64,000 nt of DNA. Origin: Asterionella formosa. Taxonomy: Eukaryota. Under the pieces are notes generated by a model, which saw nothing but the letters and a program-made list of their open reading frames with translations, searched no databases and was not told the origin of the DNA. A program made the translations under genes and the position numbers. The stretch covers positions 1 through 64,000 of the forward strand of contig NKIB01012926.1 of NCBI GenBank assembly GCA_002256025.1, read 5' to 3'. This document shows, one piece after another, positions 4,133-61,455 of the stretch (position 1 is its first letter; each line of letters begins with the position of its first letter).

Positions 4133-4778
4133 TATGTACCGGTATTCTCGAACAATTACCGTATGGCCGTACGTAAGTATAGGCAAGAAGGAATACCGGT
4201 ATGTATATACAATACTAAAACTTCAGCTATTTTTATCCTATATTAAATTGTTTATTTAAGCCAAATGACCGCAACTTGCAGGTACCTGGTGTACTATTTG
4301 CGAAGCCCCAACGTACCAGTCTTAGTGTGAACGAGAATTTGGGGGAATTATTTTGGGTGGTCAATATGATGTCCGCAGGATCCACTTATGGTGGACAGAC
4401 GTAGCCTTCTGTCATTCACACAGTACCTGGTACCAGGTACGAGGTAATGCTCTGGTCTGCTGGCCTTCTAGAAAAATCCAACCGACTAGCTCGACCGCAT
4501 GAGGCGCGGTGGTCGTGACGACTATGTAGCATTCTTTGCTGTTGTTTCGTGGCTGTGGCCTCGTGGTTCGACCAGGTCCCAGTTACAAGGTACTGTACCT
4601 GGTACCAGGTACCACAGGTACCGAGGAGTACTAATCATGCATACTATCTCCTCCTGTGTATCGTACCAGTACATAGCTACATACCATTTGACGTATGCTG
4701 ACCTCAATCACGTGAACAAAGTACCAGTACCTGGTACCTGGTAGTCAACCTGGTACCAGGTACGAGGTACCAGGTAGT
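4133..4778. repeat. Cluster of GTAC-centred palindromic repeats in the divergent Fcf2 / F-box gap
   Basis: Perfect 18-bp palindrome GTACCTGGTACCAGGTAC at 4423-4440 and 4595-4612, a chained GTACCAG/CTGGTAC run at 4721-4778, and TACCGGTA near 4137 and 4194. Confidence 0.9.
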
Positions 4779-5068
4779 ATGCATTTACGAGTGTTACTCA
4801 TTGCTCGTTGCTGTAGCTACACGCACTCGTAAATTATGATTGTATTTCTATGCATCACATGGAACAAGTGGTTTCTATCGGACGAACAAGACGATGAATT
4901 CCAATTGTTCTCACTTTTTTCCTTTCTTCCAAACATGCACGCAAGTTGAGCTTGCCCCGCCCCTTTTGACATTCCTCCACTCACACCAATACTCTTTACC
5001 CTTCCGCATTCGTCACTCCCGCAATCGAGAGCGGAAACCAAGCGCACGATACAACGAGGTTAATCATT

Positions 5069-6493
5069 ATGACTCGGCCATGGAAGCGACCACGCCGATC
5101 GCTGCGCATCGCGGCACTTCGAGCGTCACATGAAAACCCATCGCCGATTTCGACCCTCCCCACCGAGCTGCTGGCCAACATTCTCAGCTTCAATGCCCCA
5201 AAGTCGGAATCTTACTATCGCTGGACTTGGATGGATCGCATGTCCAAAGTTTGTCTGCACTGGAGCGCCGTGGCTGACTTGTTCTTCAAGCCGCAACATT
5301 TGTACTTAGATTTTATCTACTACCATGATCTAGAAAAAGAACACTTGTTGTACGAGTTCGCGACACATGAGCAGATAGATGAGTTGTCTATCGAAGACCG
5401 CGTTCCGTTTCTGGAATCATTTCTCACAGAGTCGTCCAAATCGGCCGGGGTGGAGTTCATCATGCTGAACAACGGTATGCCCTATGACATTGGGGCCGTG
5501 GAGAACGTGGCCGTACAAGCACTGGTACGTCGTATATTTTGCACACCTGGGGTGTTCAGTGACCTTTCCAAGCTAGCAATTCTATGCATTGATCATTTGT
5601 CTTCCGAAACTATTGCCTTTCCGTGGATTGACTCTGGAACCACGTTGAAACGAATCGCTATGGCACACCCAAAGTTAGACTACATCTATTTAGATGGATG
5701 CTTTCCATGGGCGCTCAAAATTAGTCCCATGCAATGGAAATTCGTATGTTCGCACTTGGACTTGGATACTTTGATACTTGGTGGGGCTACGTTTTTGACA
5801 GACGCTCATTTAGAGGCTTGTGCCGAGCACTTGGAGAAGCTGAACTTTTTGTGTTTGGATTCATGTGGGACCCGCAGACCTAATGGTAGATTCCATATTA
5901 CCGATTCGGGGCTCATATCGCTATCCAAGCATTGCACCAGTTTGAAGCATTTGGCATTGAAAACCATGCACAACATCACAGAAAATGGACTAGAAGCTTT
6001 GCTTCGTGCCAACCCAAACATAACAGGCCTTGATTTGGAGTCCAGTCACAGCATGAGCATTCAAGCAAGCACGATCATTCGAAAATATGCACAGAAATTA
6101 ACACACATCAAGGTCCTGCACAGCGATTGGTTTACAGATGAAGCCTTGAATGAATTGGTGGTGGGCGACATCCAACGACAAACGAAGTTGACAGGTACTA
6201 GCGATCTAGTTCTCTTAAACATTCGCGGAACTCAAGTATCACCATCTGGACTTCGGCAAGTATTGGCCTCTAATGTGCTCAAATCGATCGCTGCCATTGA
6301 TATAGGATACAGCAGTGAGGACTTGAGGGATGCTACCTTGATGAGACCCGGATTGAAATACGCTATCTTGGCACAATTGGTAGATGCCGAAGATTTGGAT
6401 GTCATCCGGTCGACCGTGGAGGCCCGCAAGGCTGAGTGGTTGTGTCTTTCACAAGATTACGGAATCGAATTTTCCACCAAGGCCGGACAGTAG
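5069..6493 (+). CDS. F-box / leucine-rich repeat protein
   Basis: F-box ISTLPTELLANILSF...VCLHWSAVA, followed by AMN1/RNI-type LRRs (ITDSGLISLSKHCTSLKHLALKTMHNITENGLEALLRANPNITGLDL). Confidence 0.85.
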   Translation: MTRPWKRPRRSLRIAALRASHENPSPISTLPTELLANILSFNAPKSESYYRWTWMDRMSKVCLHWSAVADLFFKPQHLYLDFIYYHDLEKEHLLYEFATHEQIDELSIEDRVPFLESFLTESSKSAGVEFIMLNNGMPYDIGAVENVAVQALVRRIFCTPGVFSDLSKLAILCIDHLSSETIAFPWIDSGTTLKRIAMAHPKLDYIYLDGCFPWALKISPMQWKFVCSHLDLDTLILGGATFLTDAHLEACAEHLEKLNFLCLDSCGTRRPNGRFHITDSGLISLSKHCTSLKHLALKTMHNITENGLEALLRANPNITGLDLESSHSMSIQASTIIRKYAQKLTHIKVLHSDWFTDEALNELVVGDIQRQTKLTGTSDLVLLNIRGTQVSPSGLRQVLASNVLKSIAAIDIGYSSEDLRDATLMRPGLKYAILAQLVDAEDLDVIRSTVEARKAEWLCLSQDYGIEFSTKAGQ

Positions 6494-8653: not shown

Positions 8654-8767
8654 CTATAGCTAGAAGTGAAATTGTATGCTTCTTCTCTGCTGATACACTA
8701 CATCAATCGGTCGAAGAAATTCGTCGTGGCGTTGCCATAGAATTGTCGCTCTGTTATATTGGATACA

Positions 8768-8835
8768 ATACCTGGTACCTGGTAGGCTGCCAGCAGGAGA
8801 CTGGAAAGTACCGGTACCTGGTACCAGTACCAGGC
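8768..8835. repeat. GTAC-centred palindromic repeat cluster in the divergent mTERF / amine oxidase gap
   Basis: atacctggtacctggtagg and gtaccggtacctggtaccagtaccagg. Confidence 0.85.
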
Positions 8836-9096
8836 TACGATCGAGGATTATCATCTTGAAGTTCAGTTGGGCAACTACCGCTGCGGCATTTCTACATACT
8901 TACTATAGAGGTCCTCATTATACGGGTGTGCCCCCGCATATTAATAATTACTACAGGTAGGTCCCGGTTGTTATATTAACTACCGGTACGTTGTTTAGTA
9001 CTAAAAAGATGAACAGATATTCGTGTACGGTAGTAAGGAGTTGTTCCATACGAAGAAGAAATTAAATTTATAAGAACCCCAAATATTTTGTGTACC

Positions 9097-10551: not shown

Positions 10552-10568
10552 TAGTAAAATGATTTATA

Positions 10569-10720
10569 ACCTGGTAGCGCTGCATGGTACCAGGTAGTAC
10601 CAGTACCATGTAGCAGAAAAAATATTTCATTATTCTACCGGTAGTCTAAAAGTCTGGTATAATTTTGTATTGTTGCACCAACTAACAATCGAGACTTCCG
10701 GTACGAGGTACCTGGTACGG
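10569..10720. repeat. GTAC-centred repeat cluster upstream of the PTEN-like gene
   Basis: ggtaccaggtagtaccagtacc, ctaccggtag, ccggtacgaggtacctggtacgg. Confidence 0.8.
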
Positions 10721-10829
10721 TATATAGACCATGATATTTACCTGCAAGAGGAACATCGTTAAGCGAATCTGTCAGTTTATTTTTATATGGAACGTACATT
10801 GATTCAGCAGCAAAAGTCTTTTGACCACC

Positions 10830-14503: not shown

Positions 14504-14979
14504 GGGGCTGCTGGATTTTCTATTTTAGCTGTATATTATTGCTTGTGGTTTGGACAAGGGAAATGACGACTCGGCAGTCGCTCCTGGCTATATGGGGTGA
14601 ACAAAGCTGTGGACGGCTGATGACGATCATCAAACAATGGCGCTGCAAGATGATGGGGGTAAGAAGAAAAATTTGAAGGAAACAGGATATAATATGTACC
14701 GGTATGATATTCAAGAAATTCTATAGACGACCTACAGCAAGACAACAAAGCGGACAAGATGCGGTGTGTCCTACACATACCGCTCTCAAAAGCCATCGTT
14801 CCGCTGATGCACAGATGTGAAAAACGAATATACATATTCATATTCGTATAAATAGAAAAACAAAAATTGTACGCACATCATTCCATGTTACATTACGATC
14901 TGTTCTTTGACACACATCAAGCAAAAAGATATGGTTCGTTCTTTTCCACGTTGTTTTGACGCTATCATTCCTCGTTCAG

Positions 14980-15001: not shown

Positions 15002-15008
15002 TCACACC

Positions 15009-15673: not shown

Positions 15674-16268
15674 AAGGGACTCACTTTTTTGCTTTAAACC
15701 GCAAGTTGCACTAGGGTTGTCGAGTGAGCAGTTGCAAGTCCAGGACAGAAATTCCATGGAATAATGTTGCAGTCAAATACATATTTTCACTTTCATAAAT
15801 CTTTCTCTGTAGGTGATGAATAATGTTTGGTCCTTGTCCTCAGTACAACTATATGCTAGGAATCATTCAGACAATCTAACCATTGAAGGTTATATCAAGT
15901 ATACTGGTACCTGGTACTTTATGTTCTTGTACTAATTTTTGGAATGTTTTTCAGCTAGAACTTGTCCAAGATTTTTTTAGAGTCCACAGTCCTTGTGACT
16001 CGAGCTATGTTCTGGTATTCTTTACGTCACTGGTTTGCAATCTACCGGTACAATACTCGCTCCCTGAGTATGGGTAATACATGCCGACATACCAGCACCG
16101 GTACACTATTGGAAAAAAAATTGTGTTGATGGAAAGCGAGCGAATCTTCAACTTTATCTCGTTACTGTGAACAGGATCACAGTGAGAATCTAACATTGTC
16201 CCCAAGCATAAAGTTATTCCTGATAAATTTTTAATCCTTTTGAGTATTCTCCTGTTTGTATCATTGTC

Positions 16269-19933: not shown

Positions 19934-22322
19934 TTTTGATTAAGTTGCGAGTTTTTCGTGTCTGACTGACTACCAGCACCGAAAATTCTACCCGCTCAAC
20001 TAATACTTGTACTCCGTTTAGTCGACAGATTCTGATTGGTTGATTCCGATGCTGGTATCTTGTAAACTTCGACCCCACTCAACTCCCTTATCTATGATCG
20101 AATGACCGTCACTTCTATCTCGTATTGTTCTGTTATGATTGCTAACAAGAGAAGTACGGAAGCAGGTGTTTCCCCGCCGAGGGAAAATCACAATCTCTTG
20201 AGAGTTGCTTACTATCCGTCTCGAATTGATGGAACGACTGACTGGTAACAACTAAATTTATGAAGATCCTTGTTTGAAGGAACAGGTACTGAATGTCCAC
20301 GTACAGGTATGAAATATTTTATTTCTATTTTCATTGTAATTCTTATATTGTGATGGAAATTTACATCTTCGAATTTACATATTTCTGTCATTTTTAGTTT
20401 ATGCCTGTACTATCCCCTGGCAAAAATCAGATTTTTGACTCTTCGTATATACATGCAATATAGGATAGCAGACCATTCTCATGATCGATATACGTACATT
20501 TTATATATACTATGTATTATAATGATTGATCATACATGAGTATACATACGTACAACTATTATATGCCAATCATATATGCATATGATGGATATATGGGTCA
20601 TAGAAAGGTCAAGTATTTTCATACGGAGGTTTATATATGTCTTGTTGAATACTGGTATACCGGTATGGCGATTCATATCCACTGGAGAATGTGATACACT
20701 ATGGTCACACATTAGTAGAATAAAGCACCAAGTAAACGTTTTTCTCTGTGTCCAGTGACATATGGATTCATCGTGATTTGCATTACAGCTGTTCATATAC
20801 TGAATTCGTTATCCTTTACTAGTTTATCAGACCTTTCCGCTCCACCCTTGGACCCATTATACTTCGACGCAGATCTACTCTGGTTGAAGCGGCTGCATCT
20901 GCAAACAATCAGCCAACACGTTGATGCAGCATTGCACCTCCGGAGTTTGCCATTGAACGCATTTTCGGTTGTACCTGACTACTACCCCAACTTTCGGACA
21001 GAGGTCCCGACTGCTTGTGGCCCATACTACACACACCCTACTCTGTACCGAGTATAAACAGACACTCACGACGCCAACACGATTTCCTTTTGTTGGAAAT
21101 TTTTATCAACAAACCCATTCTCTCGATGATTGACATCCTTAACCCAGAGGTTTTCCCCCATAATCACAACCAGCTTGTACACCTACTTGTCCTTACATAC
21201 GAACGCTTACCAAACCAGAGCCTCGCCGGTTTTCCGCTATCAGAACTACCAACCCACTTTAATCCAGGTGCCTACCACATGGCTGGCATGCAGAGAACAC
21301 AAATGCACAATTCGCATGGCTATCATTGAGGCTACTACCATGCACATGTCTGTTAAAAAAATATCATGAAAATATGATCAAGGGTATCGTACGCTAAGTG
21401 GCACAGGACTTTCAAATATATGATAGTTTTTTGATCAAAAATATGATCAATGTATCACATAATTATGATCATGCAGTAAACTTTTACCGTGCTTAAAGTA
21501 TGATGATACTATCATAGTTATAATACCATTGCATCATATAATTAGTTAAACATGGTCATATGATGATGTGTATACTTTTGTCATACATCTATCTAAGCAT
21601 GATTGTAATTCTCATCGATATCACTGATAGGATTAAATTGATCGAAATTTAGAACTATATTTAAGAATTGTTTTATTTTTCTATATCTTGAGTGGCTACA
21701 GAATGTTCTACAATGCTCTCATCGCAATGATTGGTGCTTCAGCTTTCATTTCCACATTCCCCCCAATCCAATTCTGAAGGTTGTTGTACTGGTTGCCTTG
21801 CCGTTGTTCCCCTGCTTGCTTTGTTCCATTTAGTACTCCTGAGGGTTCTGAGTTTGCTTTCACGCACTATTGAATCCGTTTCGTTGTTCCAATCAGCCAT
21901 ACTAACAAAGAGAAGCAATTCATTGTTAGCTGTTCATGTTTTGCTTACACAACAACATGCATTTTGCTTCTATCTGCCCTCACTTAACACAAATTGAGGT
22001 GGTAACTGATGCATATTTCTGTAGAAGAATGTGTCAGTCGAAGATTGAATGAGAAGCAAAGTATTGATCAATAAATGGGCTCCAACACTGCTCTTTGGAA
22101 CTTACAAATACTGTTTGTCTACCATTATGATGAAAAAAGCAACACATATGTGTCAGTTTTTCTAACAGTTGTAGATTGATCCAAAGATGGCTGATAGGCA
22201 GCACTTACCGTTTCTTTTGTCCACATTGATGGTTGGCCAGCCACCAAATCGAAAAGGAGCTATTGAATCAATGAAAGGGGACGAGTCATTCCGTATTTGT
22301 AATCCCAGCAATTGATCACCTT

Positions 22323-22655
22323 GGCATTTGCTCTTGACAAACCGTGATGCTATGCAGACAGCTTGTTGATTCCGCCCTTCTCCATCATATTCACTCCTTC
22401 TTAGCCGCATGGTGTATCATCGTGCTGTATTGTCACTTCAGTTTTTCGCATCATGTGTTGCTTGAGATCCTTCATTTCAGGAAGTGGATGCAGCATGACA
22501 AGGAACATGAAAGGCATCTGCTCTTGACTTACCATCAATTGATTCCGCCCTTCTCTTCTAAGCCGCAAGTATCATTGTGCTGTATTATCACTTTCGTTTT
22601 CCGCGTCATCATCTGTGTTAATCCTTCATTTCAGGAGCAAAGTGTATGCATGAAA
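22323..22655. repeat. Diverged tandem duplication (two copies, period ~190 bp)
   Basis: The blocks ggcat(t/c)tgctcttgac, ttgattccgcccttctc, gtatcat(c/t)gtgctgtatt and atccttcatttcagga recur in order, starting at 22323 and 22513. Confidence 0.75.
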
Positions 22656-24399
22656 ACATGATTTCAAATGTTTCAGCCATGAATAAATATATATATAAAG
22701 ATTTTTAAGAAGGTTAAATGTATATATAGTTGTATATTTGCATAGTTTTAAACACGCTCATTATACAGCACATCCTGTGTGTACTAATATCAATTTTGAT
22801 TATACATAATTCAAATATTTACAATGCATGATGAGTTCATAGTTTTCCATGACCTGTTGAGTTTTTTCAATTTTTGTGTGTCAATTCTTGTACTCTACCT
22901 ACAAGTCAGTGGCTGATTTAATTAAGCCCCTTAATAAACGGGAGTCATCACCAATTTTTCAAATGGTCGAAATCATACATTTATGCATATAGACATATTG
23001 ACCAAAATTCATATGGCCTACCGGTACTAGTACTGTATAATTGCTGGTAATTACTTCCATCATGGAAACACCACAATAGTGCAGCGGAAAACTGAATATG
23101 CTCATGTGTTTAGGATCATTAGATCATATTTTTAAGATCAATTGATCCTGATTCTTGAAAATAAATGTTGATCGTTCATTTTCTCATCAACGACACCGTT
23201 CATCATATGATCAATATGTTATGATCAAAGGTATAGGATAAACGAATCAAAAATCATCGATTAAAGATCATAGTTTATTCCGGAGTAGTCGTTGCTCATG
23301 CATGCAACCCCTTCCTCCCCTGTATACAGTCCGGAAGTGATAACTCCCAAGCTACCAAATTTTTATGTCTTGTAAGAATTATCGCAGCATGCATGCATAC
23401 ATGGTGACTCCTAATGGTATATACAATGCAGGAGTGATGACCACCAGACTACCAATCCTATAGGTCCTGTAGAATTATCGCAACATGGCTGCATATCTAA
23501 TGAAAGGGCGGGAGGAGTCATCCATGCACCTGTATAGTATGAAATATGGAAATGATCAAATATAGCTAGTCTACACAACAAGGAGCAGTGCATCATATAT
23601 GCCCTGTTTTTTAATTCCTATGAAATCTCTTGATTTGTTCTGCGCTTTTTCGCCAGAATTGTTTTCATTGGCTGTTTCACTGGACAGCATTCGAATTGAT
23701 TGTGATTTGAACGAAGTAATGATCAAAGTCCACCCAATTGCAGAATGGTGAGTCTCACAACTAAGTATCAGCCAGTCGATTAAAATTGGACTGTCTTTTG
23801 TGCACCCTCATTGTGTTTGTACTTGACTTGGCAGCTGTCAGCCAAGAGCAGCCATGGCATGCCACCACCATCTATTTTCTATACAAGTTTCGAATGCGTT
23901 CAGCTATGATAACTTTTGCTCCCCCCTCCTAAACACTATCTCAACACCCTTGTTGACATAGATTTTTCTTTATCCTTTGGCTTCACAGGCTCAGGTTACT
24001 GAATGCCTTCATCTGCAAGGAGTTCAGCCAAGCAGGTCCACGTTGGCGTCAAGAAAACCTCAACCCCGATTTCCCTCACATGCTCCAACCATTGACTTCT
24101 TCATTGATGAAGTCGAGGTAGCTATATTGACGACATTAGGTGGCGCAGGCTTGTGTATAATTGATGATGCTGAAGGCAATACCAAAAAATCCATTGTAAG
24201 TGCGCCCAGTGTTATATATGTACTGATTGATTATTGCGAATTACTTACCTCCATTCAATTGGCCCAGTTTGCGAGATCTTGTAAACCCACACTGGCCACA
24301 CTGGATACACATGTAACATTTTTTGGGTGTTTGCTTGTACTGTATCCGCTAACATCTGCTTACCTGTGCTACTATAATGCACTTCGCCTTGAAAGAATG

Positions 24400-25500
24400 G
24401 GAAGAGTATAGTGCTTTTTCGCTGATGATCATTCCGACCGCAATATGAATTGTGCCTTGTAGACTGCATCATTGCTCCATCGCTTTTACTTTTTCTCCAG
24501 AAGGATTGTTGCAGTTTTGAAATTACCATTACACATCGTTTGTAGATTTCGTTCATGTGCATTGTGACTCCTTGTGTTTGTTGTTCAGCAACCGAAGCCA
24601 CCACTCTATATCGTAGGCTACCAGATCCTGCAAACACTTTGTTTTTTGGACATCGTCTTGAAACCACTGCATTCTTCATTGCTTCATTGATCTGTACATC
24701 GAAGGGATAATACAATGAAAGAATCTTTTCGCCTTCGACTTTGCAGCAACATTGACTATTAAAAATTCATACAATGAACTTTCCATTTTCATATAGTGAT
24801 ATTTTCCATTGCCAACATTTATTCCTGCTTTCACTGGACACCATGTCTCAGAAAAAACTCATCGCAGCCAAACAACAAGTAGTTGATTGGTGCTTTTGAT
24901 AATTCCGTAAATTCAATCAATAAGAGGTTCCAGTCGTTTTTCAATTCATGCTCCATAATATATTTTCAACCGGAGAAAATCTGCTTTTGATGGACACTTG
25001 AGCAAGACTGGGCAATTGGATTCCAAAAAGGTAGGGCAGGGAAATATGTGGACCCAGTGTGATGGATTAGAAAGGAATCGCGGTTCTGGGACATGAAGTG
25101 GAAAGCAAACTTGCTTTGGTTTTTTCTACTATTTAATGTTCTCAGCCATTCAAATGCAGGCTGTAGATTTAATAAATCCTTACAGGACCATTTGGAGATA
25201 GCTCAAATTGTAGAATCATCACAACAGATGATTGAAGATTAGATGACATTGTATGTAGTAATGGCATCAACCATCATTTCCACACCCGCATCTGGCTCCA
25301 TTGCCTTTGAGCTTCCAGTTACTTGATTCTTGGGGCAAACGTTTGTTGGCTTCTTGTACCATAAAGCCCTGTTGCACACATAACAGACCTTTGATTTTAC
25401 TCGATAGTCTAGTTAGTATCTTTCTCATGTAGCCACCAATACAGAATGATTCATATGATTTCTTCCGGTTTAATTGCCCTAATGTGCGCAATCACATGAG
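24400..25500 (-). pseudogene. Decayed DDE transposase of the 'Mutator-like' (PF20700) / Kolobok type
   Basis: Motifs across frames: VCPKNQVTGSSKAMEPDA, IICCDDSTI, and YPFDVQINEAMKNAVVSRRCPKNKVFAGSGSLRYRV. Multiple stops and frameshifts. Confidence 0.65.
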
Positions 25501-26272
25501 CTACAGATCTATATATACATATATTTATTTATTTGGTAAATTTATAATTGGCAACTACATATCGAAAAAACATTTTCGGGATCTTTTGATTTTCACTTAT
25601 GGCTATCTTGAGCAAAATGCAGATGCATGGTGAGTACTCTTTTTCTTCAAACCAACTATTCTCAACATGCATTCAAAGTAGGATATAACAGTAGAACAAC
25701 GGCAACTTGAGTTGAATTATGGAATTCGCAACCCCGAAAGTGACGATGGTGGGAAGGAAGATGATGAGGATGGGATTCTCGTTTTAGGGGGAAAAAATGT
25801 CCGTTAAATATCCAGCAGTACAGTCCATGTAAGCGCAACAACCATAGAAAGTATATCAAATGACAGTTATTCCATTCGAGTTTTCATAATGATGGTGGCT
25901 TGTTGTATTCGGTTTCCCGCATACTGCAGCTGTGGGAGGCCTGGAGGTAAGGAATTACTCAAGCTACCGGTACTTAGATCCGAATTCAAAAAGACCAACT
26001 ACGAGTCTAGAGATTCAACAAATCAAAGCCAACAAAAATCGAAAATGAAACAAAGAAACTTTTGCAGAAAAGGCAGTAATTGGGTCAAAGTAACTTCGAT
26101 GCTTAGCTACGATCGGTGAATGTAGAAACGAGAAATGTTTCTATGAATATACAAGGACATGAATACAAAGAAATGCTTTTATGGAAAACATACGTTCACC
26201 GAATGAATTCTTAATTAGAGAAAGATTAATTTTCATCTGAAATTAATTGATTTGGATTTCTAGGAGTGCCAT

Positions 26273-30196: not shown

Positions 30197-32109
30197 ACCT
30201 AGTGTAAGCAAGACTAAAAACGCACTGAGTGATGGCAGAACGGCCGAACGGTACACTTTATGTGAAAATAGCTCCGCTGTAAATATTACCGATAGGCGAA
30301 AAACCGGCCTCGCACACGAGAAACTCCACGTCGCGCCTCTCCCGCGTGTCAGCGAATCCTCTATTTGATGTGGACGATGAAGACTACAACGAAACAAGAA
30401 TGAAAAGAAAGCAAAAATACAGCGCAATGGTGAGCATAGATCTCCGCTGGGATCAATATCTTGTAGTTGAGTTGGAGGGAGGTACAATACTGGTAGAGTC
30501 AATGAAATGATAAACACTCCATGCGATAAAAATTCTATGATTGGGATGTGTTTTTGCACAGCACAACGGTACTTGGTACAGGTATATTGTGGTAGAGTCC
30601 TACACATACAGTACATTTACCGGTGTATGGGTTCAACCAAAAATATGGCGCCAGTCATGCCGCGAATTGAAATATATATGCTCGATATTCAATGTGCAAT
30701 ATATTTGAAGTGTATCGAGTCACTCAATTGATTTCCTTCCAAGTTCGTTTGAATTTGAATTGATTTGCATGCGCAGGCAAGCGTGCCTGGCTCGCCTTAC
30801 AAAAATATATAACACTGCACACAAGTTCAGTTTTTACAGGATAGCCGTACATATGTACTTGATTACCCGGTAAACTATATTTATGCATGGTACTTTCTAT
30901 GTGAGTACATAGGTCCACGCAATCTATGTCGCACTACCTCGTACCAGTACATACTCAAGACAGACAGAAATGCAGTGTGTTGACATTTCCTCTTCGGTAC
31001 AGCTAACCACGATTCGAGGACCACAAACTAACCAGGTACACCTTCTGTAATTTGAACCAGTACTCCCTACCTGGTAGACTATTTATTACACAGTAGTCTA
31101 GCTATTTCGGTGGATGTGATGGGACTCCCACCTCAAGAAGTTGGACTTCCTGTTACATACACAGTCACCAGAACAGAATATCGTGCATCCTCTGTCATCA
31201 GTGTGGTGTACCAGTATACTTTATCAATATGTAATCATTTTAATATGTCAATAATAAACATACCGGTAGTAAAGTAAGCACATCACAACATTGCTCCCAA
31301 TTGGACGTCTCCAAACAATATGATCTTCATTTTCATTGAAAGGTGAGGTGATGATAAGAAAGAATGTGTTAAAGATCCAGGCTTTGAGCATTGCAGATTT
31401 TGGAAGCCATTGAGTGGGGCACAAAGCTCCAGCATGACAGAGGGATTCTGAGTCAAACACACGTTGTCATACCAGCCAGAAACTTGCCAGTGGAAGAGTC
31501 TAAGGAAGTATGTAGTGATGTCTCTCACCAAATCAATGCCCCAACCAATCCTCCAATTTATTGTGGCTCTTTTGACTCATGTTCCATTTGCCTACATTAG
31601 TGTAGTAAGAGGCAATTGCTTCATTCATTGTTGCTACTCTCTTCTGTGTTCTCAGTTTTTGGCTAATATTATATTATTAAAGTATGGGGTGTATGTTTAT
31701 TACAATAACATTGTGTAAGTGTGTTAAATGAATGTGAGTGCATATAATAAGAACAAATTGATCCTTGGATCCATGATCTACCTGGTGGACTTTGATTGGC
31801 AGGAGTGGTACTGGTACGTATTTACCTCGATTGCTTTCTTCTAGCTTGTATGTACATCTACGGTATACATGGAATTTTGTACCTACCGGTACACGTCTGC
31901 TACACAAGATATTTTGTTCAGTTCAAAAAATCCTGGTGGTGCATATCTAGCTGGTATGCAATACAGAAGTACTGCTTATTGTACATACAAACGAGAGTAT
32001 TTTCACAAGACTTCTTCCGTCGCAGGCATCGCACTGATCCGTTGTTAATGGGGTTGGCCCGAGCAAGGTATCGGCGCGATCTTGACCTACCAGCCATTTT
32101 CTTTTTGAA

Positions 32110-37593: not shown

Positions 37594-40500
37594 TGTTAGA
37601 AAATGTGGAAAAGGACTCATCAGACTATAGTGAAGGTACTGAATGGATTCATGTGACTAAAAAGAAACATAACAAAGCCACGTCGTCGGCCAAGAAAGCG
37701 TCACCAACAAGGGTACCAAAATAGGTACCAGGTGCACTACCGGTATATAATATATGGGCTATGCTCTTTTTTATAGCTATCTGGTTTACATCGATAAAGC
37801 CTTCACTGTATGCTTGTATTCTGGACGTTGTTGTCTTTTCGACACAACTGAGCTCAAGTCACACTTGTGGATTCAACATAACTATAAAAGAAACCGCAAA
37901 AGAATGGGGTCCGGTGACACAGCTGCCGATGATGGCGGCGGGAACGGAACTCCAACTCAAAAGGAAAAGAAGGAAACACAAGGCAGCGGGAAAAAGTTAC
38001 CCTTCCGGTCTGCAAATCCAAACCACAAAACACTGTGCCAAGACACACGAAGTTCGAAGGGAAATGTGATGACATAAAGGGCCACATTTACGACTGCTCA
38101 GACTTCCTGACAGTCAGATCTGTTTGTGAAGACCACAAAGGAAGTTGCTGAATATGTTGGAAGGACATACAAATATGGTGGAGACATCTGGCTTGCTGTG
38201 GAGAATCTCGAGCTATCCATTATCAACAAACCATCAGACCCTCCAGCCGGAGCAACCAGAACCCAGGAACGTATCTGGGGGAAGCAAGTAGATGCATATG
38301 TCAAGCGGAGCAATTATCTTAATGAAAACATCAAGACCCTCTATTCATTGGTATGGGCGCAGTGTACTGATGTCATGCGGCAAAAAGTTGAGGCATTACC
38401 TGACTTTTATAGCTTAACTACCGGGCGAGTCCTCAACTGACATCACTGGACAGCGCTATCAATGCCTGCAGAGGTTATTGACCGGGTTCATGTACTTGCC
38501 CGTCGCACCGTTGGAGCGTGAGCTGCTGGACTAGCATTTACAGATCGAATTGGAAGCCCTTTCCTCAACCCAGACAATGACGACAGCTCGACTGATGAAA
38601 CATATACCCCTAACACCTCTGACATAGATGACGATGACACTGATAGTGAACAAGCTGACAACAATGATGACCATCCTACAGACATCTCCATTGCAGCAGG
38701 AGTGTATGACCATTCTACAGACAACCCCATTGCACGAATCTACAATGCAGATGAAAACAATAACCAACACGAAAATTTGTAAAATGCTGAAATGGCTAAT
38801 GAACATCCAGACAACAATGAAATTGAAAATGAACATAACAATCAGGAAATGGATAACATCATACTAGAGCATGAAAATTCGAAAGAATTACCTATGACAG
38901 CAGAGGAAGAGGAAATGGATGCAAAATATGGAAGTCGTACAAATGCAAACCAGCTCAGGCCCAGAAAGCCTTGGGACTATGGCCACCTCCATGCGACTCT
39001 TGAACATACTGAAATGACGCAATATAACATTAAAAAAGGCATAAAGATGTTTGGTGATGCAGGCATCAAGGCTGTACTAACAGAATTGCAGCAATTACAC
39101 AACAGGAAAGTCCTGGAACCAAAAAGCCCAAGTGAAATGTCAAGTGGAGATAAACATGCAGCATTACAATATCTCATGTTCTTAAAACAAAAGCGAAATG
39201 GTACAATCAAGGGCTGTGGATGTGCTTACAGTCGCAAACAAAGGACATACATGAGCAAAGAAGATGCAAGCTCACCAACTGTTGCCATAGAGTCTGTACT
39301 ACTGTCATGTGCTATTGATGAAATGGAAAATCGCAATGTGGCAACCATTGACATCGCAGGAGCATTTATGCCAGCAGACATGGATGATATACTAGTGCAC
39401 ATGAAATTAGAGGGCACCATGGCGGAGCTACTGGTTTGTATCAACCCAAAAATGTATTGTACTAAACATGTAGCTACAAGTCGAACAAGGAGGGAAACCA
39501 ATCCTGTATGTTGAACTGAAGAAGGCCCTATACAGAACATTTCAGGCTGCCCTGCTATTCTGGAAGAAACTATCATCTCAATTAGAAACATGGCTTCATC
39601 ATGAACCCATATGAATCATGTGTCATGAATAAGATGATCAATGGCAATCAGTACACCATACTCTGGCACGTAGATGATTTAAAGATATCTCATGTAGAAC
39701 ATGAGATTGTATCTGCAATTATCAAGCAACTGGAGGCAACATTTGGGCTAGAAGCCCCTCAAACAAAAACACGAGGAAAAGTACATGATTACTTGGGCAT
39801 GATAATCGACTTTAGCAAAAAAGGAAAAGTCAAAATATCTGTGAAGGATTACATGGTCAGGAGGTTGGTGAGTCTACCACCAGAAATGAATGGGGAAGCT
39901 GCTATACCAGCATCAAATCATTTGTTTGAAAGCAAGCTTGGCTCTATTAAGCTAAAGGCGGAAGAGGCAGTACTGTTCCATCATAATGTGGCCAAACTAC
40001 TATTTTTGTGCAAACAGGCTTGGCCTGACATTCAAACTGCCATTGCATTCCTATGCATGAGAGTGAAATGCCCAGATGAGGATGACTACAAAAAAACTGT
40101 GCTGTGTTATGAAATACTGATGAGGAACAATCAATATGCAGCTGACATTAGAAACAGACAACGTCAATATTGTAATATGGTGGGCTGATGCCTCATTTGC
40201 AGTGCACCCTGACATGATGAGTCACACTGGAGGAGCAATGACCCTAGGCAAGGGCATCATGTATGGCACATCAACCTGACAGAAAATGAATACAAAAAGC
40301 AAGTTCAACTGAGAGCAAGCTTGTAGGGGTGAATGATGTAATGCCTCAAGTTCTCTGGACTAGTAGGTACTTTTTGGAAGTTCAGGGATATCTGATCTCT
40401 GACTCAGTGATAAACCAGGATAATCAGAGTGCAATCCTATTGGAGAAGAATGGAAAAGCATCCAGCAGCAAGCGTACTCAACACATCAACAATCGATTTT

Positions 40501-40959
40501 TTTGTGAAGGATAGGATTGCCTCTCAAGAGGTCTCTGTCCAGTGCTGCCCTACTGAAAACATGATTGCAGTTTCTTTAAACAAGCCCCTTCAGGGTGCAG
40601 TTTTCAAGAAATTTAGGGACCAGGTTATGAACGTTGATCCTACAACCTCAAGCTTGCAGGATCACAGGAGTGTGTTAGAAAATGTGGAAAAGGAATCACC
40701 AGACTATAGTGAAGGTACTGAATGGATTCATATGACTAAAAAGAAACATAACAAGGCCACGCCGTTGGCCAAGAAAGAGTCACCAACAAGGGTACCAAAA
40801 TAGGTAATAGGTGCACTACCGGTATATAATATATGGGCTATTCTCATTCTTTTATAGCTATCTGGTTTACATCGATAAAACCTCCCCTGTATACTTGTAT
40901 TCTGGACTTTGTTGTCTTATTGACACAACTGAACTCAAGTCACACTTGTGGAATCAACA
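37594..40959 (+). mobile_element. Ty1/Copia LTR retrotransposon (diatom CoDi-like), internally deleted and degenerate (element A)
   Basis: LTRs at 37594-37878 and 40673-40959 (TGTTAG...TCAACA, roughly 92-93% identical by eye); TSD ataga/ataaa. Coding remnants: gag FVKTTKEVAEYVGRTY, RT motifs SSPTVAIES, DIAGAF and LWHVDDLKISH, RNase H motifs DASFAVH, QDNQSAILLE and DHRSVL running into the 3' LTR. Confidence 0.92.
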
Positions 40960-46900: not shown

Positions 46901-47543
46901 CTCCTTTGTCTGTCTCGACTTCGTACTCTTCGTCAGAACACGGGTTATGGTTCTTGGAGTACATCGTTCGGAATCCTCTTGCCTTCGCCAGAGCAAGCGT
47001 TTTAACGCTCCACTGGTACCAGTTCGTTTCGTTGCCATCAAACTTGATGAGCCTCATGCTCTCTTCAGACATTTCTGTAGACATGTTAAACGCTTAAGTC
47101 TGTTTATAAACGTGTTAAAGTATTACCTTTTTGATAGATCTATATTGTTAGACAAAGAAGACTATAGATAGAGACGTTCGTTTCTCTTTCCGTTTCTATA
47201 TTCTTATTGTGAGTTTACTAATCTAGTTTAGGTTGTTCTGTTTGCTTGAACAAAACAAACGAACTATTCTCCAAATGCTGTTTGCATTTCTAGAAACATA
47301 CAATCATAGATAGACACATGTCTATCTCACACTTACTGATCATAGGTTTTTAAAAATGATCATTCATTTCAAACTATCGGTCTTCCGAAATAGCTTATAT
47401 TGTCCGGCTCATTATAGTCGGAGTAACAAGTTATAATGTGTGGTTGATGAGAGCTTGGTACATCAAAGTGGACTCATTCAAATCGTTTGACTCGTTTGAC
47501 TCCGAGTCCTAACTACGTACCGGTAGATGAGCTCACTTTGACA
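43996..47543 (-). mobile_element. Copia element B, 5' half: 5' LTR (47113-47543), gag (46077-47084), integrase (45178-46080), RT to 43996
   Basis: gag KFDGNETNWYQWS with two CCHC knuckles. Integrase YMDISGPY, LRCDNASEN, PQQNGVVERK. RT EPKSYKQAL, DIEAAFLE, YVDDL, ending abruptly at ELGQLRKHL. Confidence 0.92.
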
Positions 47544-47683
47544 TCGCTATACATGTGAATAACGCATCATGTACTTGAGTTTATGTCAAATATGTATCAT
47601 CTCTTCGCCCGAATTTCATACCGGTAATACGGAGTTCATTTCAGCGACGGGAGTATACTAGGGTACCTGCATTTATTAGCTCT

Positions 47684-51682: not shown

Positions 51683-51921
51683 TAGCGATGACACCAGGCA
51701 TGAGCGATGGTGAAAGACCAGCCTGTGTGCCAGTTTCCGGAAGACTACCAGGTACTTCGTCTTGTTGTTGAGGGGAACCTTTTCGTGAATAGAGTTGAGC
51801 TACAGTGCAATATTATGTATGGCTACATGTATTCTATTGCTGTCACGATTGCATTGTTAGTACTGTAGCACTCACGCATGTACCTAATCTGGTCGTTACG
51901 CCAGTACGGTTCATACGGCCC

Positions 51922-55511: not shown

Positions 55512-55782
55512 TGGTACCTGGGTACCAGGTACCAGGTAGCTTTCACATTATCATGCAAAGGATGGCGTCGCCTAAAGGTCCCTCCGTCAACGGTGATAGA
55601 GCTTATGTCCGTACAGCATAGTATGGTATCAGGTAACTGGTACCTGGTACCAGTACACCAGTACTATACACATAAGTACTCGGTGGAGTACCTGTTACCC
55701 GAGTACCTTGGTAACCTTGGAGTGCATTGACATCCAAGGCACTGGTGCCAGGTACCAGGTACCGGGTCCTGCTACCGGTAGT
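55512..55782. repeat. Dense GTAC-centred repeat cluster in the Lhcf promoter region
   Basis: ggtacctgggtaccaggtaccaggtag, ctggtacctggtaccagtacaccagtac, ccaggtaccaggtaccgg, ctaccggtag; one more copy at ~55985. Confidence 0.9.
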
Positions 55783-56073
55783 TGTTGTGGTTGTTATACT
55801 ATGTACGTTGCTCCGTGCATTGCTAGTTGAGCGAACAATTCTGAAGCGCATTTCTTACATGCAGCCATACGTATGAAGTCTACTGGCAGTCTAGCACCAA
55901 GTTTGAGGTTAGTTGAAGTCGAAGTGGAAAGATTTGGATTCACTACAGGTATTCCAATTATGAGTTAGATATCTTACTACAAGGAGGTACCTGGTGGTAA
56001 GTACTACATCTGCATGGTTGGACAGCCGTGGATCTTGGGCACTCTTTCGTTGCAAAAGGAATCGAATATCAAG

Positions 56074-59225: not shown

Positions 59226-61103
59226 TTAATCATCCAGAAATGCCTGTAGCGGGCGAAATCTGGACTGCCCTCCACTACCAGCTCGGCGTCGTGGTCGAAC
59301 AAAGGGCTGGATATCACACTTTTCTGGTGATTTATTGGACCACTCTTTCCAATAGCTATCATCGTCTTCGTCTTCTTTCCCTTCCCCATCCTCTAAATAG
59401 TATTCCATTTTCTTATGTCGCCCACTAAAACCTGCTAAATACCGTCGTACCATAGAAAAATTGAGCGCCATACACATTGCAACAGCAAGCAACAGTAAGG
59501 ACACAATGGACCATCCAGAACTATGTACACGATCCTTCAATTCAGCTAATCTCTTGCGGGTTGTTAGTCTGGAGATGACAACGACTCGAGGCGACTGTAG
59601 CGTATTAGGCCAATATTCACGTTTCAAGTGTTCATAAACGCGCTGCTTGTTCCAAGTAATATCATTGACGGCGTCACGAACTATGTCCTGGCTGAAAAGG
59701 AAAATTTTGTGATCGTCTGGATCAACTATTGTTCCCGATGCGTAGCATTTTGGGCACAGTGCCGATGGAGGCCACTGGACCTCTTCAGAGTCCAAGAGGG
59801 AATCGTAACCTTCTTTCGTTTGCCTTAGACGCTCGATGCGGTAGGATTGATGAGCTTGCCACAGCCATATAGCAAGATTTCGCCACGAAGGGTCAGTGGT
59901 AATTGGAATCTTCTTTCGAAATCTTGAAAGCAGTCCCTTCTTCTCCAAACCCATATCTTGTCGGCAGCTCTCGCTCTTTTGACATGCTGAATAGGAAGCC
60001 ACAACATTCTCTCCAGCTTTTCTATTATTGGCAAAACCAAATTCGTTGACGTAATCTTGGACAACTCCCATATTATGACCAACTACTATTCTATCCAAAT
60101 CACCCATGACAGCTCCATGTTGCTCCGCCACTCCAACTGACATAATGTGCAGGAGCTTCCAGAAGCCACAACCAAACCCGAGGTCTTCAGGATTGTTGGC
60201 CGCACAAGAGGTCGACCATTTTCGTGGATGCTTATAGTAGTCATGGGATTTGAGTATTCTTGTAACTTCCTCTATTGACCCTTCAATGACTTGAAAGTTA
60301 TTTCGAAAATCATTTATCACATTGTGAATTAACGCCATGTCTCGTGTAGGGAGTGTCCAATGCATGAGATCCAGCCACTCGCGGAATATTTGTAGCCGAT
60401 CAAAGGACCAAGGAACAACTTCGCCGTCACGACTCTGCTTGATGTTGGAATGGATAGAATGAAGGAAGGACTCCATCGCGTCGCTGCAGACGTCAGACAG
60501 CTCTGAATGTGGATGCAAAATCTCCCTCATGTGATCGATTTCTCCAATATGAAGCTTGTTGGGGTCATTCTTGTTGTTGAGTTGGTATTCTTTCATTTTG
60601 TTTCTTTCGTTTTCGTCTTGAAGTAGCTTTAGTGCCTCTTCGGCTTCATCGACTTCTTTCAGATTTACATTTAGCACATTAACAACTTCTTCAATCTCGA
60701 TATTATTATTCATGGTCCTCTGTATCAGTTTTCCTTCAATAGACCCCTGCGGAAAACCGAGCAAACGGGGAACCGCAATAATTCCCAAATCTTCACATGC
60801 GTCTCGATGTACTTCGCAATTGATTGCCCAAAACTCTACCGGTTCACGAATAGATCGTCGTCGAACTTCTCTGGCCACCGAGACGTATCTATCTCTCAGT
60901 TGCACACAAAGAGGAGAGGCGGAGTGGTAGAAGAGTGCTACTCGAGGCCATGTCACTTCCAAGACAAAGGAGGGAGTCTCGGAAGTGAGCTTTTCTGTCG
61001 CTGTCACCAAAAACTCTTCGACCGGATGATATCTCGCCTGGGTGTATTGATATTCAGGTTCCTTTTCCTTTTTCGCTTTGGGCTCTCGATGACCGTACGG
61101 CAT
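59226..61103 (-). CDS. QSOX-like protein (thioredoxin + ERV/ALR domains + C-terminal TM) with degenerate redox motifs; 5' end uncertain
   Basis: Trx-fold ALFYHSASPLC..WAINC..AC..LGIIAVPRL; ERV motifs GFGCGFWKLLHIMSVG, LAIWLWQAH, QWPPSALCPKC, WNKQRVYEHLKREYW; TM WSIVSLLLLAVAMCMAL. First ATG at 61103. Confidence 0.8.
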   Translation of the reverse strand: MPYGHREPKAKKEKEPEYQYTQARYHPVEEFLVTATEKLTSETPSFVLEVTWPRVALFYHSASPLCVQLRDRYVSVAREVRRRSIREPVEFWAINCEVHRDACEDLGIIAVPRLLGFPQGSIEGKLIQRTMNNNIEIEEVVNVLNVNLKEVDEAEEALKLLQDENERNKMKEYQLNNKNDPNKLHIGEIDHMREILHPHSELSDVCSDAMESFLHSIHSNIKQSRDGEVVPWSFDRLQIFREWLDLMHWTLPTRDMALIHNVINDFRNNFQVIEGSIEEVTRILKSHDYYKHPRKWSTSCAANNPEDLGFGCGFWKLLHIMSVGVAEQHGAVMGDLDRIVVGHNMGVVQDYVNEFGFANNRKAGENVVASYSACQKSESCRQDMGLEKKGLLSRFRKKIPITTDPSWRNLAIWLWQAHQSYRIERLRQTKEGYDSLLDSEEVQWPPSALCPKCYASGTIVDPDDHKIFLFSQDIVRDAVNDITWNKQRVYEHLKREYWPNTLQSPRVVVISRLTTRKRLAELKDRVHSSGWSIVSLLLLAVAMCMALNFSMVRRYLAGFSGRHKKMEYYLEDGEGKEDEDDDSYWKEWSNKSPEKCDIQPFVRPRRRAGSGGQSRFRPLQAFLDD

Positions 61104-61297
61104 TGGATTGAATGAGGTTTGCGTGAGTCTCAAATGTGATAGTATGCGATGCCGAGTATGGTATTCAACAAACGTATCAGTGTGACCGCAAATGGTGGAG
61201 CAACGCACTGGCAAATTGTCCGGTCAGTCAAAGTCGATCGCGACGAAGGTATATAAAGCCTTTGAAATGTATAATCCACAGTCATCAGTTGATAGTT

Positions 61298-61455
61298 CCT
61301 GGTACCAGGTACCTGGTACCCTGGTGCAATCAATTCATTTATTTCTAGCAGGGCAGTATCGGTATTGTGTATCGTAAGAGTCGAGTTATTCCTTCTCAAA
61401 GTGTAGGAAGCTGGCAGTCCACCAAGCTAGTACGTACCAGTAGAGTGCCTGGTAG
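61298..61455. repeat. GTAC-centred repeat cluster in the divergent QSOX-like / COG3899-like gap
   Basis: cctggtaccaggtacctggtaccctgg; gtacgtaccagtag; cctggtag. Confidence 0.85.

What the first reader, a model, noticed from the sequence alone, without database searches (positions are those of the whole stretch)
4133..61455. Promoter-restricted GTAC palindrome code: CTGGTAC/GTACCAG heptamer chains mark gene 5' flanks
Seen: chains of CTGGTAC/GTACCAG, joined head-to-tail and switching orientation at the shared GTAC (giving the palindrome GTACCTGGTACCAGGTAC), plus a TACCGGTA variant. They occur at 4133-4778, 8768-8992, 10569-10720, ~14697, 15903-16105, 30566-31270, 31807-32242, 34453-34865, 47515-47670, ~51747, 55512-55995 and 61298-61455. 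Most sites are 5' flanks or divergent promoters, with the densest clusters in the Fcf2/F-box gap and upstream of Lhcf; 31807-32242 has no gene assigned by me. The three convergent 3' gaps (6500-7110, 13100-13790, 17760-18050) lack the heptamer chains, and CDSs nearly lack them. There are no TIRs, no fixed length and no shared flanks, so this is not a normal MITE or satellite. Inference: either a general promoter element for a dimeric DNA-binding factor (like telo-boxes), or the trace of a templated insertion process acting at open chromatin, such as telomerase-like or template-switch repair adding a 6-7 nt unit. I do not recognise it as a described diatom element, but I cannot check the literature.
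Basis: partly seen in the sequence, partly recalled or inferred. Interest (0 to 1): 0.85.

Follow-up and report, generated by a model that had tools for sequence, protein, structure and literature searches.

The report
Diatom promoter arrays of TACC(W)GGTA sites
A freshwater diatom carries islands of one short palindromic DNA word, alone or in overlapping chains, just upstream of many genes and never inside them, which most likely marks binding sites for an unknown general promoter protein.

Summary
TACCGGTA (21 hits, 0.26 expected) and TACCWGGTA (25 hits, 0.21 expected) are the most over-represented words in the window. None of 46 sites lies in 29.3 kb of ORFs. Islands are about five times denser within 500 bp upstream of confident genes than in other non-coding DNA or 3' flanks. 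Independent DNA runs hold the arrays, and long RNA contigs stop short of them. Similar islands occur in many diatom-like metagenome contigs, with a 5':3' density ratio of 2.4 (bootstrap 1.02-4.65). Against slippage, transposon, telomerase-like or cruciform origins: the central base is strictly A/T but random in orientation, spacing is irregular, 28 of 46 sites are solitary with unrelated flanks, and flanks are not shared. The best reading (about 0.5) is clustered sites for an unknown dimeric general promoter factor, reshaped by unit-sized indels. "Promoter-restricted" and "palindrome code" are overstated. I found no diatom description; TACCGGTA matches predicted Phytophthora promoter motif M94.

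The parts
4137..4776 (.). Densest cluster, in the divergent Fcf2(-)/F-box(+) gap: solitary TACCGGTA at 4137 and 4194, and chains at 4280-4319, 4423-4446, 4571-4620, 4663-4669 and 4721-4776.
   Evidence: Long RNA contigs of Fcf2 end at 4019/4036 and the F-box contig starts at 4975, so the cluster lies between the two transcripts.
8769..8988 (.). Chain at 8769-8833 and solitary TACCGGTA at 8981, in the divergent mTERF(-)/amine-oxidase(+) gap.
   Evidence: The mTERF RNA contigs reach 8700/8750, which puts the chain about 20-80 bp beyond.
10586..10722 (.). Three islands in the tandem amine-oxidase to PTEN-like gap: 10586-10612, 10636-10643 and 10700-10722.
   Evidence: RNA contig X8 of the amine-oxidase gene runs to 10681, so the first two islands lie in its 3' end. 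PTEN-like RNA contigs of two runs start at 10797/10798, about 75-95 bp after the third island.
14697..14704 (.). Solitary TACCGGTA upstream of the CDP-alcohol phosphatidyltransferase gene (-).
   Evidence: The RNA contig ends at 14555.
15904..16050 (.). Two-unit chain at 15904-15917 and TACCGGTA at 16043, upstream of the PLD-like gene (+).
   Evidence: A contig of DNA run X7 lacks 15 nt here and keeps a single GTAC.
20658..25972 (.). Three solitary TACCGGTA (20658, 23019, 25965) in ORF-poor DNA.
30569..32984 (.). Loose islands at 30569-31268 and 31811-32241, and a site at 32977. They lie to the right of the minus-strand ORFs 26273-30616, so they are probably on those ORFs' 5' side, and downstream of the ankyrin gene.
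   Evidence: No ORF of 100 aa or more, no Rfam family and no tRNA here.
34453..34865 (.). Three solitary TACCGGTA upstream of the ankyrin-repeat gene (-).
37712..37745 (+). LTR-borne copy: two GGTACC plus TACCGGTA, directly followed by TATATAATATA.
   Evidence: The LTR pair is 37594-37878 and 40673-40959, 92-93% identical.
40791..40824 (+). The same LTR module in the second LTR; one GGTACC has decayed and TACCGGTA is intact.
47518..47670 (.). Two TACCGGTA (47518, 47619) and one GGTACC, 65-166 bp upstream of the OTU gene ATG (47684).
51746..51754 (.). Solitary TACCAGGTA.
55514..56005 (.). Islands at 55514-55537, 55636-55665, 55751-55780 and 55987-56005. All lie within 500 bp upstream of the Lhcf ATG (56014); the 2.1 kb of ORF-free DNA further upstream holds no 8/9-mer site.
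61299..61455 (.). Chain at 61299-61319 and looser units up to 61455, in the divergent gap between ORF 59226-61103(-) and ORF 61498-61956(+).

Best explanation
The islands are homotypic clusters of one cis-element, the dyad TACC-(0 or 1 nt, W)-GGTA. Most likely it is bound by an unidentified dimeric sequence-specific protein that acts at many promoters regardless of gene function, for example by keeping the promoter open or helping to recruit the transcription machinery. In this it would resemble general regulatory factor sites in yeast, or GAGA and telo-box elements. Chains arise because neighbouring 9-mers can share their terminal TA (TACCWGG[TA]CCWGGTA, period 7; period 6 for TACCGGTA). Unit-sized indels make and remove copies quickly, and selection keeps the word itself. 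Shown: the sequence specificity, the distribution, presence in independent samples and in related genomes, and turnover. Inferred: protein binding, the dimer, and any effect on transcription or chromatin.
For: 1. Specific dyad. In the window, TACC-N0-GGTA occurs 21 times and TACC-N1-GGTA 26 times, against 0-8 for spacings 2-15. The central base is W in 25 of 26 cases (binomial p=1.2e-5). 21 of 27 ACCGGT hexamers are flanked by T...A.
2. 28 of 46 sites are solitary with unrelated flanks, which local slippage cannot produce.
3. 0 of 46 sites lie in 29,265 bp of ORFs. In the window plus 42 loci, 2 of 160 islands lie in ORFs that make up 40.5% of the DNA.
4. Window island counts: upstream-only 13 in 4785 bp, upstream-and-downstream 4 in 683 bp, downstream-only 2 in 4799 bp, other non-ORF 14 in 24,468 bp. 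That is 17 of 33 islands in 15.7% of the non-ORF DNA, p=2e-6.
5. Window plus 42 loci: 52 islands per 27.0 kb upstream against 18 per 22.6 kb downstream, ratio 2.4. Controls: GATC 0.84, CATG 0.66, TAC/GTA triplet runs 1.25. The first 100 bp before the ATG is depleted.
6. The genes served are unrelated: Fcf2, F-box, mTERF, amine oxidase, PTEN-like, PLD, OTU and Lhcf.
7. Long RNA contigs stop short of the arrays in the Fcf2/F-box gap and at mTERF, and start after the one before the PTEN-like gene.
8. In the orthologous pair L020/L058 (74% nt identity), both keep many islands between about -300 and -1000, though that DNA no longer aligns, while the proximal 300 bp does align.
9. A retrotransposon LTR carries the module directly 5' of a TATA-like box.
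10. Within chains the non-W positions stay intact while W is randomised, and CSG spacers are 6 of 351. This fits constraint on the word.
11. TACCGGTA is predicted promoter motif M94 in Phytophthora infestans, another stramenopile (passages read).
Against: No binding protein, accessibility data or reporter data exist for this element.

Gene maps are ORF-based, with no intron models. The lower bootstrap bound of the 5':3' ratio is 1.02. A within-locus null gives only p of about 0.10.

One array lies in a transcribed 3' end, and 2 of 15 gaps in the loci are convergent. Convergent gaps in the window are almost wholly transcribed, so 'excluded from transcripts' and 'attracted to promoters' are only partly separable. 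The low density in the 24 kb of other non-ORF DNA argues for the second.

Head-to-tail overlapping sites 7 bp apart cannot all be occupied at once.

In other species' loci the islands sit in (TAC)n/(GTA)n palindromic low-complexity DNA, which shows that a mutational process is also at work. A 15-nt strain indel makes or removes a two-unit array.

The metagenome loci were selected by the pattern itself, and their organisms are not known.
Confidence: 0.5

Rival explanations
1. A neutral mutational by-product. A self-propagating palindromic micro- or minisatellite grows by slippage and strand or template switching at GGTACC, and survives only where DNA is neither coding nor transcribed. It has no function.
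For: A 15-nt indel at 15899 and a 16-nt duplication-like insertion at 4296 between strains. Chains of up to 9 GTAC cores. Relatives' loci are full of (TAC)n(GTA)n palindromic runs around the islands. Island positions are not conserved between the orthologues L020 and L058. Template switching at a palindrome could flip W.
Against: 28 of 46 sites are solitary with unrelated flanks. W is strict (25 of 26) and CSG spacers are almost absent, although transitions should create them. Adjacent units are not copies of each other (67 against 54). Density in 24.5 kb of other non-ORF DNA is about five times lower than upstream of genes. The TAC/GTA triplet runs themselves show no 5' bias (ratio 1.25) and do enter ORFs (9 of 95), unlike the family word.
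Confidence: 0.25
2. A protein-independent structural element. The GGTACC-rich islands disfavour nucleosomes or extrude cruciforms, and so mark promoters by DNA mechanics alone.
For: Promoter-proximal, orientation-free and general across genes. Exact 18-nt palindromes exist.
Against: Palindromic W combinations are not preferred over direct ones (54 against 67). Most sites are single 8/9-mers, too short for a cruciform. Inter-island spacing shows no nucleosome-scale periodicity. Strict 8/9-mer specificity is more than a compositional effect would need.
Confidence: 0.1
3. Transposon-related: fragments, target sites or excision footprints (chains of target-site duplications) of a DNA transposon or MITE family that inserts at promoters.
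For: A small TIR-bearing MITE-like element of about 92 bp at about 4190-4283 abuts arrays. Its three other copies (L011, L041, L068) also sit beside arrays. The piece 4225-4286 is multi-copy in the DNA runs. LTR copies carry the word.
Against: Array flanks are not shared: loose-end consensus agreement is 0.41-0.64. blastn of 126 loci against the window finds only the MITE and one other piece. All-against-all blastn of the loci finds no common flank family. No TIR, target-site duplication or fixed length. Only 4 MITE copies were seen, and no consistent target-site duplication could be read.
Confidence: 0.07
4. Telomerase-like or other fixed-template addition of a 6-7 nt unit at breaks in open chromatin.
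For: Period 7 dominates GTAC-GTAC spacing: 20 of the adjacent GTAC pairs in the window and 351 in the loci.
Against: Unit orientation (W) is random. Spacings of 5, 6 and 8 are mixed within one chain. Solitary sites dominate. Nothing ties the unit to a chromosome end.
Confidence: 0.03

Closest known systems
Phytophthora infestans predicted promoter motif M94, TACCGGTA (PMC3597505; passages read, supplement tables not read)
   Same: The identical 8-nt palindrome, over-represented in the promoters of another stramenopile and classed by its authors as a high-confidence putative transcription factor binding site.
   Different: It was reported as a single stage-associated motif (germinated cyst and hyphal sets), not as chains and not with the 9-nt W variant. 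Its sister motif M93, TACATGTA, is not enriched here (2 against 1.66 expected). No binding factor is named in the passages I read.
Promoter microsatellite-like site arrays and general regulatory factor sites: (GA)n/GAGA elements, plant telo-boxes, yeast Reb1/Abf1/Rap1 sites (recalled, no call)
   Same: Short words found at many promoters regardless of gene function, often in multiple overlapping copies, upstream of the transcript start. They are thought to act through one abundant factor that keeps promoters open.
   Different: The word is different. This one is a strict dyad with spacing 0 or 1. The factor is unknown and no chromatin data exist. Membership of any of these families was not tested and the sequences do not match.
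GTAC-core elements of SBP-domain factors: plant SPL sites and Chlamydomonas copper-response elements (recalled, no call)
   Same: A GTAC core, often in several copies in one promoter.
   Different: Here the constrained unit is TACC-N0/1-GGTA, not GTAC itself; 28 of 46 sites are solitary 8/9-mers. As I recall, SBP domains belong to the green lineage. Whether this diatom has one could not be tested, because no genome is held.
Ordinary microsatellites, minisatellites and MITEs
   Same: Short units joined head to tail, length differences between strains, and many copies across the genome.
   Different: Units are not copies of their neighbours, spacing is irregular, most sites are single, flanks are not shared, and the distribution is biased to 5' flanks.

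Membership tests
Cis-regulatory site cluster (general promoter element) | Over-representation of a defined word against a composition-matched background | tested here: met
   21 against 0.26 and 25 against 0.21 expected; no shuffle reaches the observed counts.
Cis-regulatory site cluster (general promoter element) | Positional bias to the upstream side of genes and exclusion from coding sequence | tested here: met
   17 of 33 islands lie in the 15.7% of non-ORF DNA within 500 bp upstream of confident genes (p=2e-6), and 0 of 46 sites lie in ORFs; 5':3' ratio 2.4 (1.02-4.65). Not absolute.
Cis-regulatory site cluster (general promoter element) | Retention in orthologous promoters | tested here: inconclusive
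   One pair only, L020/L058. Islands are present in both but at non-alignable positions, and both loci were selected for having an array.
Cis-regulatory site cluster (general promoter element) | Bound by a sequence-specific protein; changes transcription or accessibility | not testable with these tools
   No binding, ATAC, MNase or reporter data were available.
Microsatellite or minisatellite made by slippage | Neighbouring units are copies of each other, with a regular period | tested here: not met
   67 direct against 54 inverted W pairs (p=0.28 against 50:50); spacings of 5-8 are mixed within chains.
Microsatellite or minisatellite made by slippage | Unit-number polymorphism between strains | tested here: inconclusive
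   one 15-nt indel (8+7) at 15899 and one 16-nt insertion at 4296. Most arrays break the contigs, so they could not be compared.
MITE or transposon family | Terminal inverted repeats, target-site duplication, and shared internal or flanking sequence among copies | tested here: not met
   loose-end agreement 0.41-0.64; no shared flanks among 126 loci and the window. The neighbouring MITE-like element is a separate element.
Telomerase-like templated repeat | One fixed unit in one orientation | tested here: not met
SBP/CuRE GTAC elements | An SBP-domain factor in the genome; GTAC as the sufficient core | not tested
   No genome is held. The constrained word is wider than GTAC.

The most novel reading that the evidence does not exclude
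The islands record a previously unrecognised mutational process in some diatom lineages: site-specific nicking or hairpin-primed, strand-switching synthesis at GTAC/GGTACC in open promoter DNA. It would keep writing short self-complementary units (GTAC-CWG, GTAC-CG and, in relatives, (TAC)n(GTA)n) into promoters. Cells may then have co-opted the product as a general promoter mark.
Probability: 0.12. Interest if true: 0.85.

Novelty: new member of a known kind. Interest (0 to 1): 0.6.

Why it matters
Very little is known about diatom cis-regulation; JASPAR 2024 lists a single diatom matrix (Table 1 passage). A word that sits upstream of many unrelated genes would give three things. It would give a direct handle for fishing out a general promoter factor by oligonucleotide pull-down or DAP-seq. 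It would give a sequence-only way to locate promoters in diatom and metagenomic contigs. It would give a simple part for promoter engineering, such as the Lhcf promoter. Arrays that gain and lose units between strains would also be a ready source of expression variation in natural populations. If the element is instead a mutational product, it would point to an unusual palindrome-writing process acting at promoters.

Tried and rejected
- Whole-genome statistics: no genome is held for this window, and the metagenome records behind the loci cannot be searched by handle.
- Within-locus null for 5' bias: 28 of 38 arrays lie nearest a start against a null of 0.62, p of about 0.10. I judged this nearly circular, because each locus is dominated by the gap that holds the array, and replaced it with per-kb densities.
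- TATA box next to TACCGGTA: 5 of 21 against 9.8% in TA-N4-TA controls, p=0.048. Two of the five are copies of one LTR, so I do not claim it.
- Start of transcription at GTAC: only the PTEN-like contig ends fall on a GTAC, and contigs cannot show starts.
- Nucleosome-scale spacing of islands: none.
- Second strain pair L027/L038: identical except for one unrelated 54-nt indel, so uninformative.
- CATGCA/TGCATG enrichment: not specific to non-coding DNA.
- Rfam and tRNA scans of the window: nothing.
- Organism: the Lhcf protein points to diatoms. Amine-oxidase relatives reach only 60% identity and carry no diatom name. The Atlas look-up of an ORF from L049 gave only 'Eukaryota'.
- Viral collection: 2 stretches with one match each, not examined further.
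- Earlier-findings look-ups: nothing for this genome. The one sequence look-alike is a bacterial RAYT/REP system and is unrelated.
- Literature: word searches for the 8/9-mers and chain words and topic searches gave no diatom description. The F. cylindrus preprint had no relevant passage.
- RNA depth over the arrays comes from other contigs that share array words, so I did not use it as evidence of transcription.

Full report
OBSERVATION

The heptamer CTGGTAC/GTACCAG occurs 47 times on both strands against 3.78 expected from dinucleotide-preserving shuffles. The 18-nt GTACCTGGTACCAGGTAC occurs exactly twice, with eight more matches at 2 or fewer mismatches, against none expected. An unbiased scan of all 6-, 7- and 8-mers puts this family first among the 7- and 8-mers: CTGGTACC, CCTGGTAC, ACCAGGTA, TACCGGTA and ACCTGGTA.

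ANATOMY

The constrained unit is not the heptamer but a dyad.
- TACC-N0-GGTA occurs 21 times and TACC-N1-GGTA 26 times. Spacings 2-15 give 0-8.
- By tool shuffles, TACCGGTA is 21 against 0.26, TACCWGGTA 25 against 0.21 and TACCSGGTA 1 against 0.09. The middle base is therefore strictly A/T (25 of 26, p=1.2e-5).
- 21 of the 27 ACCGGT hexamers in the window carry the outer T...A.
- Chains arise when 9-mers overlap by their terminal TA. This gives the GTAC-to-GTAC spacing peak at 7 (20 in the window; spacers CTG 10, CAG 6) and a smaller peak at 6 (9).
- 28 of 46 sites are solitary, with unrelated flanks.
- Islands are short: median 11 nt, 90th percentile 35 nt, maximum 87 nt.

GENES AND DISTRIBUTION IN THE WINDOW

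Pfam identifies Fcf2, F-box, mTERF, amine oxidase, PTEN-like, CDP-alcohol phosphatidyltransferase, PLD-like, armadillo, ankyrin, OTU, an Lhcf-type antenna protein, and copia-type retroelement pieces. The Lhcf protein falls in diatom clusters.

None of the 46 sites lies in the 29,265 bp of listed ORFs, and none lies in the five non-transposon convergent gaps (5.5 kb). Island counts within 500 bp of confident genes:

| Class | Islands | bp |
|---|---|---|
| Upstream only | 13 | 4785 |
| Upstream and downstream (tandem gaps) | 4 | 683 |
| Downstream only | 2 | 4799 |
| Other non-ORF DNA | 14 | 24,468 |
| ORFs | 0 | 29,265 |

So 17 of 33 islands lie in 15.7% of the non-ORF DNA (p=2e-6). In the 2.6-kb gap before Lhcf, all five 8/9-mer sites lie within about 500 bp of the ATG. 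The islands are therefore not simply tolerated in any non-coding DNA.

INDEPENDENT READS

The stretch is held by DNA and RNA runs from 13 studies, labelled as lake-water, freshwater and algae metagenomes. All of them are kept as assembled contigs. Laid on 3000-20000:
- Two DNA runs cover the locus. Summed depth is 475 and 417 in the bin 4134-4700, against 4-7 in the neighbouring single-copy bins.
- 10-15 contigs per border end at the array borders 4595 and 4614 and continue differently (loose-end agreement 0.41-0.43). The array words are thus highly multi-copy, with unshared flanks. Summed depth is not a copy number.
- Long RNA contigs of Fcf2 end at 4019/4036 and the F-box contig starts at 4975. 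mTERF contigs reach 8700/8750. PTEN-like contigs of two runs start at 10797/10798.
- The arrays lie outside these transcripts, except 10586-10612 and 10636-10643, which lie inside an amine-oxidase RNA contig that runs to 10681. Contigs cannot prove transcript ends.
- Between strains, a contig of one DNA run lacks 15 nt at 15899, which turns GTATACTGGTACCTGGTAC into a single GTAC. A contig of the same run (X7) has a 16-nt duplication-like insertion at 4296.

OTHER GENOMES

About 76 non-redundant loci have 38-50% G+C, and many carry further family sites. The high-G+C loci mostly carry little beyond the match itself. Their organisms are not known. One has an Lhc gene and one a copia gag 54% identical to the window's. 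Three share a small MITE-like element with the window.

With a crude ORF map (120 aa or more), 0 of 53 arrays lie in ORFs. The two-sided gaps are 8 divergent, 5 tandem and 2 convergent. One-sided neighbours put 16 loci on a 5' side and 5 on a 3' side, by my tally per locus.

Per kb of non-ORF DNA within 500 bp, in the window plus 42 loci, there are 52 islands per 27.0 kb upstream of ATGs against 18 per 22.6 kb downstream of stops. The ratio is 2.4, with a bootstrap over loci of 1.02-4.65. For the loci alone it is 1.9. Controls give GATC 0.84, CATG 0.66 and TAC/GTA triplet runs 1.25. 2 of 160 islands lie in ORFs that make up 40.5% of the DNA. The first 100 bp before the ATG is depleted. A within-locus null was not significant (p of about 0.10), but it is nearly circular.

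The viral collection gave only 2 stretches with one match each.

ORTHOLOGUES AND A TRANSPOSON

L020 and L058 encode the same gene at 74% nucleotide identity. The 300 bp before the ATG aligns. Further upstream nothing aligns, yet both carry many islands between about -300 and -1000. This is retention with turnover, with the caveat that both loci were selected for an array.

A short LTR element (LTRs at 37594-37878 and 40673-40959) carries GGTACC twice plus TACCGGTA directly before TATATAATATA, as if the element had borrowed a host promoter word. A general link between TACCGGTA and TATA-like boxes was weak.

AGAINST THE OTHER ORIGINS

- Slippage of one unit predicts that neighbouring units are copies. 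Instead the W of adjacent units is direct 67 times and inverted 54 times in the diatom-like loci (p=0.28 against 50:50). In the high-G+C loci it is 34 against 7.
- CSG spacers are 6 of 351 pairs at spacing 7, although transitions at W should make them. The middle position is therefore specified as W rather than drifting.
- No flank family is shared, so this is not one MITE or satellite.
- A fixed-template (telomerase-like) addition does not fit random orientation, mixed spacings of 5-8 and solitary sites.

WHAT KEEPS THE MUTATIONAL VIEW ALIVE

The strain indels point that way. So does the finding that, in other species' loci, the islands are embedded in palindromic (TAC)n/(GTA)n low-complexity DNA: GTAGTA, CTACTA and TACTAGTA are strongly enriched in island flanks. 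The window is poor in these words (0.94 per kb). However, those triplet runs lack the 5' bias and do enter ORFs.

LITERATURE

Whole-word searches for the 8/9-mers and chain words found one relevant paper. In Phytophthora infestans, TACCGGTA is predicted promoter motif M94 (PMC3597505; passages read, supplement tables not read). Topic searches for diatom promoter motifs gave no description of such arrays. JASPAR 2024 lists one diatom matrix (Table 1 passage). Papers outside the held library, and motif logos shown only as figures, could not be checked.

VERDICT

The best reading (about 0.5) is clustered sites for an unknown dimeric factor that acts at many promoters, with copy number reshaped by unit-sized indels. 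The closest analogues in how it would work are (GA)n/GAGA elements, telo-boxes and yeast general regulatory factor sites (recalled, not tested). It is not a member of those families.

| Rival | Probability |
|---|---|
| Neutral palindromic micro-satellite | 0.25 |
| Protein-free structural element | 0.10 |
| Transposon-related | 0.07 |
| Templated addition | 0.03 |

MAIN LIMITS

- Only one window was available.
- Gene maps are ORF-based.
- All read evidence comes from contigs.
- The loci were selected by the pattern itself and their organisms are unknown.
- No functional data exist.

Noticed in passing
window 4190-4283; L011 879-988; L068 1557-1667; L041 1811-1890: A small, largely self-complementary MITE-like element of about 92 bp, with terminal inverted repeats beginning CTGCAAGTTGCGGTAATTTTG. 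The window copy has a decayed left end. All four copies sit next to GTAC arrays. The piece 4225-4286 is multi-copy in both DNA runs (19 and 16 contigs at place 4224). No consistent target-site duplication could be read from four copies.
   Followed up: partly
window 37594-40959: A short LTR element of about 3.4 kb. The LTRs at 37594-37878 and 40673-40959 are 92-93% identical and enclose only reverse-transcriptase fragments (38792-39514, 39601-40188). A separate copia-type element lies on the minus strand (gag 46077-47084, integrase 45178-45840, RT 43900-45069); no LTR pair was found for it.
   Followed up: partly
L013, L014, L032, L034, L048, L050, L051, L075, L085, L101 and others: In other species' contigs the islands are embedded in palindromic triplet low-complexity DNA such as ACTACTACTAGTAGTAGT. 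In these loci TACTAGTA occurs 96 times against 3.4 expected, TACCAGTA and TACTGGTA 68 times each, and TACCGGTA 40 times. The series CG, TG/CA, TA at the centre of the 8-mer would also fit CpG deamination, whereas the CpG-free 9-mer shows almost no such variants. The two readings were not separated.
   Followed up: partly
window 26376-26507 and 29147-29309: Tandem repeats of 66 nt (2 copies, 80% matches) and 36/72 nt (3.9 copies, 99% matches) in or next to the 1034-aa ORF 26273-29377, which has no Pfam family.
   Followed up: no
window 14980-15001: A perfect (CT)11 run about 155 bp before the ATG of ORF 15155-15673. The RNA contig of that gene has 84 leading letters that do not lie at this place, which may mean an upstream exon.
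   Followed up: no
window 13021-13076: A TGA/GAT-rich coding microsatellite at the 3' end of the PTEN-like gene. Depth is raised and loose ends appear in the DNA runs there.
   Followed up: no
window 634-829 and L108 1260-1467: A 209-nt alignment at 89% identity between the window and one metagenome locus, outside any array. Its nature was not examined.
   Followed up: no
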